Origin: a virus
Taxonomy: Duplodnaviria > Heunggongvirae > Uroviricota > Caudoviricetes
DNA length: 13,819 nt
Strand: one strand, 5' to 3'
Virus record (IMG/VR): IMGVR_UViG_2534681934_000027
In this document: one piece after another, positions 3,001 through 6,000 of the stretch
Layout: the number at the start of each line of letters is the position of its first letter
How positions within the stretch are numbered: the stretch's first letter is position 1
Position numbers: made by a program

Positions 3001-6000
3001 AACCACACCGGACGCAGCCGCCGAAGCCATCAAAACGCTGATGCACGCGCTGATTGATATTTCTGTTATCGCGGACAGGGCACATAAGCACGCCACCAGC
3101 GAAACAGAATATGCCGGTGCTTTCGTTCCTCACTCACTGGCTGTCATGCAATTTAGTGCTGATACGGCGCTGAATGAGGCCAAAGCTATCCTGATTGCTG
3201 ATTGTGAAAATGGGGGGGTTATGCGTGATGATCGTTTTAATTCCCTGAAACAGGAATTTTCCGGCGTTCCTGATGATGCGGCTGATGCGCTTTCGTCAAT
3301 GCCAGAACTTATTAGAGCGGCTTTTTTCTTACTTTCCACGAGAGAATATAAATCAACGGGGCTTGATGTACTGAATATCGCCGCCGATTATGCGGAATAT
3401 GTGGCAGAGGCGCGTTATAGAAGAAAATTTCCTGAGGATGTAAGCCATGCGTGATATTTACCACCAAACAATAGACCGCGCATTTCTTGCACTTTCTCAC
3501 AGTGAAAACATGATGGAAATATTGCGCATATGGCTTGAAACACTTGGCGACAATGAACGCGACAAACAAAAATCAAGAATTGCCACGGCATTAATAACGC
3601 TTCTTGAGCCTGTAATAATGGAACTGCAAGAAATAGATCTATTGCACGACAGATATAAAGAACAGCACACCGGAGAATAAAAATAATGAAACTTAAATAT
3701 TCTGGCTTAACTGCCAGTGGCAACACTCACCCTAAATTTACGCGCGGTGATATTTACCGCGACCAGTACGGCGGCACGGTAATGATTAAGGGCGTGGAAG
3801 AACGGCGCGTAACCTACCGCCGTGAAGGTTACGAATATGATTGCGTGATGCCTGTTTATCAGTTCCGGCGTGATTTTTCTCTGGTACAGACCGCGCCGCA
3901 TAACGTGCCCACCAGCAACGCCAGGGCACGGGCAAACATCCAGAAGCTGAAAACCATGGTTAACGGATTCAGGGGCAAGAAATGAAAAGCGCACCGAACT
4001 TAAAAAAACAGCCTTACGACAAGATGACCGAAGTCATTATTTTTGCGGGTAGTGATGCCTGGGCACATGCGAAACAGTGGCAGGAACAGGACGGGCGACT
4101 GGCTGGCGATAATGTGCCTCCCGTTGTGCTGGCTGATGATCAACTGGATGAACTGGCAGAACTGAGAATCATCGACGAGGGGCGCTATTGTGTCCGGCTG
4201 TACAAGGCAGGCCACATCAGGCCATCAAATATTAATGCCATTGCGCACAAGCTGGCGGCGGCGGGTGTAACTGATGCGAATTATTACCCCGAAGGGATGC
4301 ACAGCCATATGCGGGAGAACTGGCGCGAATACCTGGAACGGGTGCGCGGGAAAGAGCCGGCGGAAGAAAAAAACCACCAGCGAAAAACCACGCTACCGAT
4401 GAGCGTTGGATCTACCGGATACGACACGCAACTGGATTACGTGGTTAAGGGGATTATTCCGGCGGTATCGCTATGCAGCATATACGGGGCTAGCGGGTCC
4501 TATAAATCATTCCTTGCCGGATCGTGGGCGTGCCATGTTGCCACTGGTCGCCAGTGGGGAGGCCGCAGGGTTGCACATGGTGCGGTTCTCTATGTGGTTG
4601 GTGAAGGCGGTATAGGTGTTCCGCGTCGTGTAAAAGCCTGGGAGGTTGTGCACGATGAGCAGGTGAAAAATCTGTATCTGGTAAACCGCCCCATCTTTCC
4701 GGCTGCCCCGCTTGATGTTGATGAAATGGTTATCGCTGCCCGTCAGGTGGAGCGGGAAACGGGTAAACCTGTACGCATGATTATTCTGGATACGCTGGCG
4801 CGTTGCTTTGGTGGGAATGATGAAAATGATTCCCGTGATATGGGGGCGTTTATCCGTGGTTGTGACGAACTGAAACGACGCACAGGGGCCACGGTGCTGG
4901 TGGTTCACCATTCCGGCAAGGATGAGACGAAAGGCGCGCGCGGTTCCAGTGCATTTCGTGCTTCGCTGGATGCTGAATACCGGATACGCAGGGAGGACGC
5001 AGGAAGCGAAGCGCTGGTTATCTCATGCACCAAAATGAAGGACGCGGAGGAACTCAAAGAAGCCGCATATGACTTACGCGTGGTGGAGCTTTTTACCGAC
5101 GCTGACGGTGAATTAATCACGTCGCTGGTGGTGGTGGATGATCCGCGCCCTCCTGTTGAACTGGAGCGCATCGAGGAGGCAGGGAACAAGACGGAAAACC
5201 ATACCGCGCTATGGGGGTGCATCCGTTCACGCACACAGAACGGCGACAAGTGCACGATCCCGCTGTTACGTGATGACATGAAAAAGCTGGGGTATGAAAT
5301 GAAAAACTTCCGGCGCTGGCTGTACAAGCTGGAAAAAGATGGGGTTATTCGTATCGATGGGGATGATGTAGCGCCGCTATAAAAGTGAGGAGCAAAAGCG
5401 AGGGGGATAGAAAGAGGGCCAAAATTAGCCCGCTCTCCCTCACTTTTCGACCTGTATACATCCTCAAAAGTGAGGGGTAAAAAAATACTTATGAAACACA
5501 CACATAGAAAAACCGAAAATCCCAACTGCGACGAAGTGAGACGCTTGAAAAAGTGAGGCGAAAAAGTGAGAGGTTGCGAGAAATGACCCAAAAACGCAGA
5601 GACAGAACAGAGCCAAAATATAAAGCGTTAGACATGACTGAGCACACCTTAAAGGTGGCAATCAGAACGATAGACCGCCACACGCGGGAAGGATACGCGA
5701 AGGAACATCCCGACCTGATAAGCGCATTCATGACCACGGCGGCGGCAAACTTTGCCACGCTGACAGAACGGGAGATTGCCGAAGCGGAACAGGTAACAAC
5801 CATCAACGTTAAAACCGGAGAGGTGGAATTATGACGGCACAGATAGCCGCTTACGGGCGGCTGGTGGACGACCCGCAGGTAAAACAGACCAGCAAGGGCA
5901 CACCGATGACGCTGGCGCGTATGGCGGTATCTTTGCCATGCAGCCAGGCACAGGACGGACAGGCGACGTTATGGTTATCGGTCATCGCATTTGGCAAACA

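What the first reader, a model, noticed from the sequence alone, without database searches (positions are those of the whole stretch)
5382..5582. Iteron array directly after the rep gene, candidate satellite origin
Six copies of AAGTGAG(G/A), five direct and one inverted, with an AT-rich stretch between clusters, start at the rep stop codon. This matches the pri-rep/ori layout of phage-inducible islands and iteron plasmids and implies autonomous replication driven by the upstream ATPase.
Basis: partly seen in the sequence, partly recalled or inferred. Interest (0 to 1): 0.55.

Follow-up and report, generated by a model that had tools for sequence, protein, structure and literature searches.

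The report
Replication origin of a phage satellite island

Summary
AAGTGAGR occurs six times in the window, all within 5383-5571 (0.53 expected by chance), five direct and one inverted, around a stretch of about 23-25% G+C.

The window is a PICI between roxA and phoQ. Its rep-to-next-gene spacer is 100% identical to that of EcCIRM13514, an island named by Fillol-Salom et al. 2018. [quoted passage not shown] It proved origin function only for the sister island EcCICFT073.

New comparative evidence here:
- **Cassette:** the repeats belong to a swapped unit (about 4348-5580) holding the Rep helicase, its C-terminal domain and the repeats. Other islands carry unrelated Reps with their own repeats in the same slot.
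- **Conservation:** in 80 further loci from other Enterobacterales genera plus one Oceanospirillaceae, the same layout follows rep.
- **Covariation:** the repeat core tracks one Rep residue, 442, at the start of the predicted winged-helix recognition helix. N goes with GTGAG, H or K with GTGGG, S with GTGCG.

Rep binding and origin activity remain untested for this cassette. Verdict: supported, already known in kind, modest interest.

The parts
3982..5382 (+). rep: 466-aa initiator-helicase ('helicase RepA family protein')
   Evidence: ORF. Pfam AAA_25, E = 2.4e-43, residues 148-315. Weak sequence match to the RSF1010 RepA helicase 1G8Y. RefSeq annotation.
3982..4356 (+). Rep N-terminal domain (residues 1-125), lying outside the swapped cassette
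4348..5580 (+). Mosaic replication cassette: Rep residues about 123-466 plus the whole repeat region
   Evidence: BLASTN homology to EcCICFT073, Sakai Sp7 and the Nissle island stops at window 4336-4347 and resumes at 5581 (at 5655 for CFT073). Many E. coli hits begin only at window 5576 or 5581.
4423..4926 (+). RecA-type (SF4-like) helicase core
   Evidence: Pfam AAA_25, residues 148-315.
5194..5379 (+). Rep C-terminal predicted winged-helix domain (residues 405-466). The recognition helix is residues 443-452.
   Evidence: AlphaFold2 model with pLDDT above 90 and an H-H-H-strand-strand pattern. Foldseek top hits are all winged-helix DNA binders, at weak E-values.
5305..5307 (+). Codon of Asn442, the residue that predicts the repeat core
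   Evidence: It is the only alignment column carrying all the information on repeat type in 71 loci: N 25/25 GTGAG, H 11/11 and K 28/28 GTGGG, S 7/7 GTGCG.
5381..5390 (+). Iteron 1, AAAAGTGAGG, overlapping the rep stop codon
5394..5403 (+). Iteron 2, the variant AAAAGCGAGG
5438..5447 (-). Iteron 4, the inverted copy and left arm of the divergent pair
   Evidence: (I2 is an 11-nt perfect inverted repeat).
5453..5460 (.). Conserved palindromic centre TGTATACA between the divergent iterons
   Evidence: Conserved in six E. coli relatives whatever the iteron type. A TGTATA(T/C)A-like centre is seen in 69 loci, and the arm spacing is exactly 24 bp in 58 of them.
5466..5475 (+). Iteron 5, right arm of the divergent pair
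5477..5521 (.). AT-rich spacer between the two iteron sets
   Evidence: G+C 23% in 5477-5506 and 25% in 5480-5519. An AT-rich block sits at the same place in relatives.
5524..5531 (+). Decayed iteron AACTGCGA (intact in relatives)
5534..5541 (+). Iteron AAGTGAGA
5549..5558 (+). Iteron AAAAGTGAGG
5562..5571 (+). Iteron AAAAGTGAGA
5574..5581 (+). Decayed last iteron (TTGCGAG), ending 2 bp before the next start codon
5583..5834 (+). 83-aa hypothetical gene. It and the SSB gene after it are shared by islands with unrelated rep-ori cassettes.

Best explanation
Region 5383-5582 is the replication origin of an EcCICFT073-family phage-inducible chromosomal island (the EcCIRM13514 allele). The short repeats (core GTGAG, longer form AAAAGTGAGG) are binding sites for the C-terminal winged-helix domain of the Rep protein encoded just upstream. 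Rep is a RecA-type, RepA-like helicase that also acts as initiator.

Inferred mechanism, by analogy with SaPI Reps and with the EcCICFT073 experiment: after a helper phage induces the island through AlpA, Rep is made and binds the two iteron sets. These include a divergent pair centred on TGTATACA. Rep then opens the DNA at that centre and/or the adjacent AT-rich spacer, and loads itself as the replicative helicase. The excised island is thereby amplified for packaging at its cos sites.

Shown here: the repeats, their conservation, their co-inheritance with the helicase and C-terminal part of rep, and their covariation with residue 442. Inferred: Rep binding, DNA melting, helicase loading and origin activity.
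For: 1. The repeat cluster is far beyond chance.
2. Its position and layout match the published PICI origin, which was proved for EcCICFT073 at the same att site and the same gene slot.
3. Islands sharing the flanking genes carry unrelated Reps, each with its own repeat in this spacer. D5_N/SF3 Rep goes with TCTACC (about 11 copies), DUF927 Rep with TAACCCGCA (11 copies), and another D5-type Rep with ACTGTTCACC (8 copies).
4. The homology breakpoints bracket the Rep helicase, the C-terminal domain and the repeats as one unit.
5. In L006 the Rep is 95% identical overall. Divergence is concentrated in the C-terminal domain and the spacer, and every repeat has changed to GTGGG.
6. Of 80 loci with a recognisable helix motif, drawn from the window, five E. 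coli relatives and 80 loci of other genera, 75 carry 3-12 copies of one GTGNG core in the 260 bp after rep. The background is 0.05-0.7. The arrangement is the same throughout.
7. Residue 442 fully predicts the core. It lies at the start of the predicted recognition helix of a winged-helix fold.
8. Int, AlpA, the DUF4222 protein and the downstream 83-aa protein are shared with islands that have different repeats, so they cannot set the specificity.
Against: There is no experiment on this Rep/repeat pair.

Only 6 of 11 family iteron positions are intact in the window. Three are variants and two are lost. The island also shows decay: an IS3-family insertion and an Icd-like pseudogene. The origin could therefore be weakened.

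The winged-helix assignment rests on a model, and the Foldseek E-values are 0.07-0.2.

The covariation is not corrected for shared ancestry.

Rep has no recognisable primase, so how synthesis is primed is unknown.
Confidence: 0.85

Rival explanations
1. The array descends from an origin but no longer works. The island is a decaying remnant that cannot replicate on its own.
For: Two of 11 iteron positions are lost and three carry a changed core base in the window, while relatives keep 9-11. The window copy has an IS3-family insertion, and there is an Icd-like pseudogene.
Against: The rep ORF is full length and intact. The divergent pair, the AT-rich spacer and three tandem right-hand copies are intact. 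The GCGAG variant also occurs in relatives with otherwise full arrays. SaPI origins work with as few as six iterons (PMC9371898).
Confidence: 0.1
2. The repeats are Rep (or other protein) operator sites that control transcription of the downstream genes or copy number, and replication starts elsewhere.
For: The array ends 2 bp before the next gene, so bound protein could affect its expression. Plasmid iterons are known to serve also in control (general knowledge).
Against: No sigma-70-like promoter was found in 5200-5800. No other repeat cluster or AAGTGAGR copy exists in the window. The equivalent spacer of EcCICFT073 is required for replication. The layout, with an AT-rich core and a divergent pair, is that of an origin.
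Confidence: 0.04
3. The repeats are a by-product: a purine-rich, low-complexity spacer, a transcription terminator for rep, or a packaging site.
For: The + strand is 65% purine. A weak GGGC...GCCC hairpin lies at 5416-5431.
Against: None of 200 shuffles reaches six copies. The hairpin is not conserved in relatives, whereas the repeats are. The only terminator-like hit is on the - strand and is at the chance level. Single-strand folding is unremarkable, z = -0.87. No Rfam family matches here. The cosN 12-mers lie at 9222 and 11401, not here.
Confidence: 0.01

Closest known systems
Origin of Gram-negative PICIs, prototype EcCICFT073 pri-rep-ori (Fillol-Salom et al. 2018, PMC6092414)
   Same: Same chromosomal site next to phoQ and the same gene order: DUF4222, rep, spacer, small gene, SSB, PerC, capsid, decoration. 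The same N-terminal 125 residues of Rep (62% identity). Iterons in two sets around an AT-rich stretch immediately 3' of rep.
   Different: The rest of Rep is unrelated: RecA-type AAA_25 helicase plus winged helix here, D5_N/DUF5906/Pox_D5 (SF3) there. The iteron is AAGTGAG here and TCTACC there. Only the CFT073 version has been tested.
EcCIRM13514 (E. coli O145:H28 RM13514), a PICI listed in the same paper
   Same: The rep-to-next-gene spacer is 100% identical. Integrase, AlpA, the DUF4222 protein, the 83-aa protein, PerC and the small terminase have identical RefSeq protein accessions in RM13514 and in strain TR01, whose copy matches the window 100% over 3900-5900.
   Different: The window copy carries an extra IS3-family insertion. 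I could not see the paper's Fig. 2a, so I cannot say whether this island's iterons are drawn there.
SaPI Rep/ori (Staphylococcus aureus pathogenicity islands; PMC9371898)
   Same: A self-contained initiator-helicase with a C-terminal winged-helix domain. Six to twelve short iterons immediately after rep, with an AT-rich centre.
   Different: SaPI Reps are SF3 or SF6 AAA+ helicases, whereas this one is RecA-type. The right-hand set here is all direct, and only one copy is inverted.
T7 gp4-like primase-helicases of related islands (Xenorhabdus, Pectobacterium and others)
   Same: Homologous helicase core and C-terminal domain (48-72% identity), with the same iteron layout after the gene.
   Different: Those proteins carry a Zn-ribbon and a Toprim primase N-terminal to the helicase. 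The window Rep instead has a 125-residue domain with no detectable sequence match to them.
Iteron plasmids (Rep_3/WH1-WH2 initiators) and IncQ RSF1010
   Same: Repeated initiator-binding sites next to an AT-rich region. The helicase core is distantly related to RSF1010 RepA.
   Different: No Rep_3-type initiator, and no separate RepC or RepB. No DnaA box, IHF site or GATC in the spacer. The repeats are 8-10 bp at irregular 10-17 bp spacing rather than about 20-bp units.

Membership tests
Gram-negative PICI replication origin | Lies immediately 3' of the replication initiator gene | tested here: met
   The first repeat overlaps the rep stop codon, and the array fills the spacer up to the next ATG.
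Gram-negative PICI replication origin | [quoted passage not shown] | tested here: met
   Left set at 5381-5475, AT-rich stretch at 5477-5521 (23-25% G+C), right set at 5524-5581.
Gram-negative PICI replication origin | Host element has the PICI gene set: int, alpA, rep, rightward transcription, no tail or lysis genes, own att site | tested here: met
   Integrase and AlpA by Pfam. Gene map between roxA and phoQ. Same site as EcCICFT073. Near-identical to EcCIRM13514.
Gram-negative PICI replication origin | rep plus ori are sufficient and necessary for autonomous replication | not testable with these tools
   Shown only for EcCICFT073. This needs the cloning experiment.
Gram-negative PICI replication origin | Rep binds the iterons specifically | not testable with these tools
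   Indirect support only: cassette co-inheritance and the covariation with residue 442.
SaPI-type Rep/ori | Initiator is an SF3 or SF6 AAA+ helicase | tested here: not met
   The helicase is Pfam AAA_25 (RecA-type) and is related to RSF1010 RepA.
SaPI-type Rep/ori | C-terminal winged-helix domain that reads the iterons | tested here: inconclusive
   The predicted fold is a winged helix at high pLDDT, and all top Foldseek hits are winged helices. The E-values are 0.07-0.2, and binding is untested.
SaPI-type Rep/ori | [quoted passage not shown] | tested here: not met
   Only one copy (5438-5447) is inverted, and the right-hand set is all direct.
Classical iteron plasmid origin | Rep_3/WH1-WH2 initiator, iterons of about 17-22 bp, DnaA box | tested here: not met
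   No such Pfam domain. Repeats are 8-10 bp. No DnaA box within two mismatches in the spacer.
T7 gp4-like primase-helicase | Zn-ribbon and Toprim primase fused N-terminal to an SF4 helicase | tested here: not met
   [not shown]

The most novel reading that the evidence does not exclude
This Rep family may be a natural set of orthogonal initiator/origin pairs in which one residue reads the fourth base of the GTGNG iteron core. The residue is 442, at the N-terminal edge of the winged-helix recognition helix: N for A, H or K for G, S (with a one-residue insertion) for C.

It would also be a RecA-type (SF4-like) self-loading initiator-helicase. That is a helicase class different from the SF3 and SF6 Reps described for SaPIs and from the D5-type Rep of EcCICFT073. 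It would open DNA at a strictly spaced divergent iteron pair centred on a TGTATA(T/C)A element, rather than (or as well as) at the AT-rich spacer.
Probability: 0.4. Interest if true: 0.5.

Novelty: already known. Interest (0 to 1): 0.3.

Why it matters
It confirms that this widespread island carries its own replication module. The rep 3' end, origin and next gene are covered at 80% or more in 633 of 5426 complete E. coli genomes, and the island is present in many O157:H7 and O145 strains.

It also shows that PICIs at one chromosomal site exchange the Rep helicase/DNA-binding part together with the cognate iterons as a single cassette.

The residue-442/iteron correlation gives a directly testable specificity rule. 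It could explain how co-resident islands avoid cross-talk at their origins, and it might supply orthogonal replicons. None of this changes the current picture of PICI biology.

Tried and rejected
**Scans of the spacer**
- Promoter and terminator scan of 5200-5800: no promoter, and one chance-level terminator-like site on the - strand.
- Rfam over the whole window: nothing in the spacer.
- Single-strand DNA folding of the spacer: z = -0.87, unremarkable.
- DnaA box, IHF consensus and GATC in the spacer: none.
- Packaging-site idea: rejected, because the cosN sequences lie at 9222 and 11401.
- The 228-aa antisense ORF 4905-5591 has no stop codon in the spacer only because the + strand is purine-rich. 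I treat it as spurious.

**Rep domains**
- PDB sequence search with Rep: only a weak RepA hit.
- Foldseek of the N-domain against the PDB: no credible hit.
- hhalign of the N-domain against the primase part of long relatives: only the linker aligns.

**Identity of the island and literature**
- My first guess that the island was EcCIEDL933/Sp7 was wrong. Sakai carries a different allele at this site.
- The literature search for 'SpLE2' was the wrong name and gave nothing useful.
- The Pri-Rep alignment in the 2018 supplement is unreadable as stored. The figure showing the iterons is not held, so I could not check whether this exact array has been printed.
- My first coordinate guess for RM13514 missed the island.

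Full report
**1. The observation**

The pattern AAGTGAGR has six matches in the 13,819-base window. They start at 5383, 5468, 5534, 5551 and 5564 on the + strand and at 5438 on the - strand. The chance expectation is 0.53, and none of 200 shuffles reached six.

The repeat extends to AAAAGTGAGG. That form occurs four times exactly and twice with one mismatch. The first copy starts at 5381, inside the rep stop codon TAA at 5380-5382. Between 5477 and 5521 the G+C content falls to 23-25%, against 50% for the window. The next gene starts at ATG 5583. The description is accurate in every point.

**2. The context**

The window lies between roxA and phoQ of E. coli. It contains the following genes:
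- a tyrosine integrase (1-1230) and AlpA (1605-1793);
- Icd-like genes;
- a DUF4222 gene (3686-3985);
- a 466-aa 'helicase RepA family' protein (3982-5382; Pfam AAA_25, E = 2e-43);
- the 200-bp spacer;
- an 83-aa gene, then SSB and a PerC-family gene;
- lambda E-like capsid and D-like decoration genes, and a small terminase gene.

Exact lambda cosN 12-mers lie at 9222 and 11401. This is the gene set of a Gram-negative phage-inducible chromosomal island (PICI).

E. coli CFT073 carries EcCICFT073 at the same site with the same gene order. E. coli O145:H28 RM13514 carries an island whose rep-to-next-gene spacer is 100% identical to the window. Its integrase, AlpA, DUF4222 protein, 83-aa protein, PerC and small terminase have the same RefSeq protein accessions as in O157:H7 strain TR01, whose copy matches the window 100% over 3900-5900. 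That island is named EcCIRM13514 in Fillol-Salom et al. 2018.

Sakai and EDL933 hold a different island at this site: Sp7/CP-933C, the capsid-forming PICI EcCIEDL933.

**3. What is published**

Fillol-Salom et al. 2018 (PMC6092414) state that in Gram-negative PICIs the region immediately 3' of rep is the origin. [quoted passage not shown] They also show that the EcCICFT073 rep-ori segment keeps a temperature-sensitive plasmid alive only when both rep and ori are intact.

For SaPIs, Rep is a self-loading helicase. Its C-terminal winged-helix domain binds six to twelve 5-6-bp iterons placed directly after rep, around an AT-rich centre (PMC9371898).

**4. Evidence that the repeats go with Rep**

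(a) *Each Rep type has its own repeat.* Islands with the same flanking genes carry unrelated initiators in this slot, and each has its own repeat in the spacer:
- EcCICFT073 and the Nissle island: D5_N/DUF5906/Pox_D5 Rep with TCTACC, about 11 copies.
- Sp7: DUF927 Rep with TAACCCGCA, 11 copies.
- TUM12357: another D5-type Rep with ACTGTTCACC, 8 copies.

(b) *The cassette has sharp boundaries.* BLASTN homology of the window to these islands stops at 4336-4347 and resumes at 5581. Many E. coli hits start only at 5576 or 5581. The exchanged unit is therefore Rep residues about 123-466 plus the whole repeat region. It ends 2 bp before the next start codon. The first 125 residues of Rep lie outside the cassette and are 62% identical to those of the EcCICFT073 Pri-Rep.

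(c) *The repeats are conserved and change together.* Five diverged E. coli relatives keep the repeats at the same places. In three of them every copy reads GTGGG instead of GTGAG. Across the six sequences, mean pairwise identity is 79% in the repeat cores and 66% in the rest of the spacer. L006 has a Rep 95% identical to the window's. Its DNA identity to the window is 88-100% from 3650 to 5150. It then falls to 81-84% in the C-terminal coding part and to about 60% in the spacer, and returns to 95% after 5650.

(d) *The layout is family-wide.* A genome scan with the Rep alignment gave 80 loci in other Enterobacterales genera and one Oceanospirillaceae. Together with the window and the five E. 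coli relatives, 80 loci had a recognisable helix motif. In 75 of them the 260 bp after rep hold 3-12 copies of one GTGNG core, against a background of 0.05-0.7. The arrangement is constant: two or three direct copies, a divergent pair, an AT-rich block, then three to five direct copies.

(e) *One Rep residue predicts the core.* In an alignment of the C-terminal 115 residues from 71 loci, one column carries all the information on the repeat core. It is window residue 442:
- N goes with GTGAG, 25 of 25.
- H goes with GTGGG, 11 of 11.
- K goes with GTGGG, 28 of 28.
- S goes with GTGCG, 7 of 7.

(f) *That residue sits at a predicted recognition helix.* An AlphaFold2 model of residues 380-466 has pLDDT above 90 from about residue 405. 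It shows three helices followed by a two-stranded wing. All the best Foldseek PDB matches are winged-helix DNA-binding domains: MotA, MexR, DtxR/IdeR, LexA, DnaD and ORC2. The E-values are weak (0.07-0.2) and the probabilities are 0.9-1.0. Residue 442 sits directly before helix 3 (443-452), the usual recognition helix.

(g) *Other island proteins cannot set the specificity.* The integrase, AlpA, the DUF4222 protein and the downstream 83-aa protein are shared with islands that have other repeats.

**5. Fine structure**

The family has up to 11 repeat positions. In the window six are intact. Three are variants: AAGCGAG at 5396, AACTGCGA at 5524 and TTGCGAG at 5574. Two are lost.

The inverted copy (5438-5447) and the copy at 5466-5475 form an 11-nt perfect inverted repeat. 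Their arms point away from each other. Between them lies TGTATACA (5453-5460). The six E. coli relatives keep this element whatever their repeat type.

In 58 of 69 loci the two cores are exactly 24 bp apart, and the centre reads TGTATA(T/C)A or a close variant. No explanation has been tested for this element. My inference is that it is where two oppositely bound Rep domains begin to open the DNA.

**6. Mechanism, with its basis marked**

Shown by the sequence and the comparisons:
- the repeat array and its conservation;
- its co-inheritance with the helicase and C-terminal part of rep;
- the residue-442 rule.

Inferred from the EcCICFT073 experiment and the SaPI model:
- Rep binds the repeats through its winged helix.
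- It melts the TATA-like centre and/or the AT-rich spacer.
- It loads itself as a hexameric helicase and drives replication of the excised island after AlpA-dependent induction.

**7. Rivals**

- *A decayed, inactive origin* is possible, given the lost and variant repeats, the IS3-family insertion and the Icd-like pseudogene. Against it, rep is intact and the key parts of the array are kept.
- *An operator-only role* is unlikely. There is no promoter-like site and no other candidate origin in the window.
- *A terminator, a packaging site or chance* are excluded.

**8. Comparison and novelty**

The region meets the sequence-level criteria of a Gram-negative PICI origin. The functional criteria cannot be tested here.

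It works like a SaPI origin but is not a member of that family. The helicase is RecA-type rather than SF3 or SF6, and the right-hand repeat set has no opposed copies. It is also not a classical iteron-plasmid origin.

The kind of feature is published, and the island itself is catalogued as EcCIRM13514. I could not view the published figure that may show this very array.

What I did not find in the papers I searched:
- the cassette boundaries;
- the family-wide layout with its fixed divergent pair;
- the residue-442 correlation.

**9. Verdict**

The feature is of an already known kind. Interest is 0.3.

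Noticed in passing
window 10684-10800 (-), ORFs 9868-10758 (-) and 10755-11081 (-): An Rfam ALIL pseudoknot (121 bits) and two overlapping ORFs mark an IS3-family insertion sequence in the right part of the island. The TR01 and RM13514 copies lack it and are about 1.3 kb shorter.
   Followed up: partly
window 9222-9233 (+) and 11401-11412 (-): Two exact lambda cosN 12-mers (GGGCGGCGACCT) lie in inverted orientation. They correspond to the cos1 and cos2 sites described for EcCICFT073 in the 2018 supplement.
   Followed up: partly
window 3686-3985 (+): The DUF4222 gene overlaps the rep start (ATGA). Its position and 99-aa length match ECs1581, the RgdR regulator of the LEE type III secretion system described by Flockhart et al. 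(PMC3378721). It therefore sits directly upstream of the replication gene.
   Followed up: partly
[not shown]
   Followed up: partly
L090 (Sakai) 2712-18172 versus the window: Within O157:H7, the same roxA-phoQ site holds two different islands. Sakai and EDL933 carry the capsid-forming PICI Sp7/CP-933C (EcCIEDL933). TR01 and many cattle strains carry the window's lambda-capsid-type island. The two share int-alpA and the small gene-SSB-PerC block but differ in the rep-ori and packaging modules.
   Followed up: partly
window 5453-5460, and the same place in 69 related loci: A palindromic TGTATA(T/C)A-like element lies exactly midway between the divergent iteron pair. The arm spacing is 24 bp in 58 of 69 loci, independent of iteron type. 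Its role is unexplained.
   Followed up: partly
window about 6252-6524 (+): A PerC-family gene follows SSB at the position of pchE in Sakai Sp7. According to PMC11773190, the PerC-like genes of EcCIEDL933 and EcCICFT073 were reported to have no effect on LEE1 promoter fusions.
   Followed up: no
window about 1851-2795 (+), versus L001: RefSeq annotates an Icd-like gene here as an incomplete pseudogene. There is a 10-bp length difference between the window and strain TR01 somewhere between the integrase gene and position 3900.
   Followed up: no
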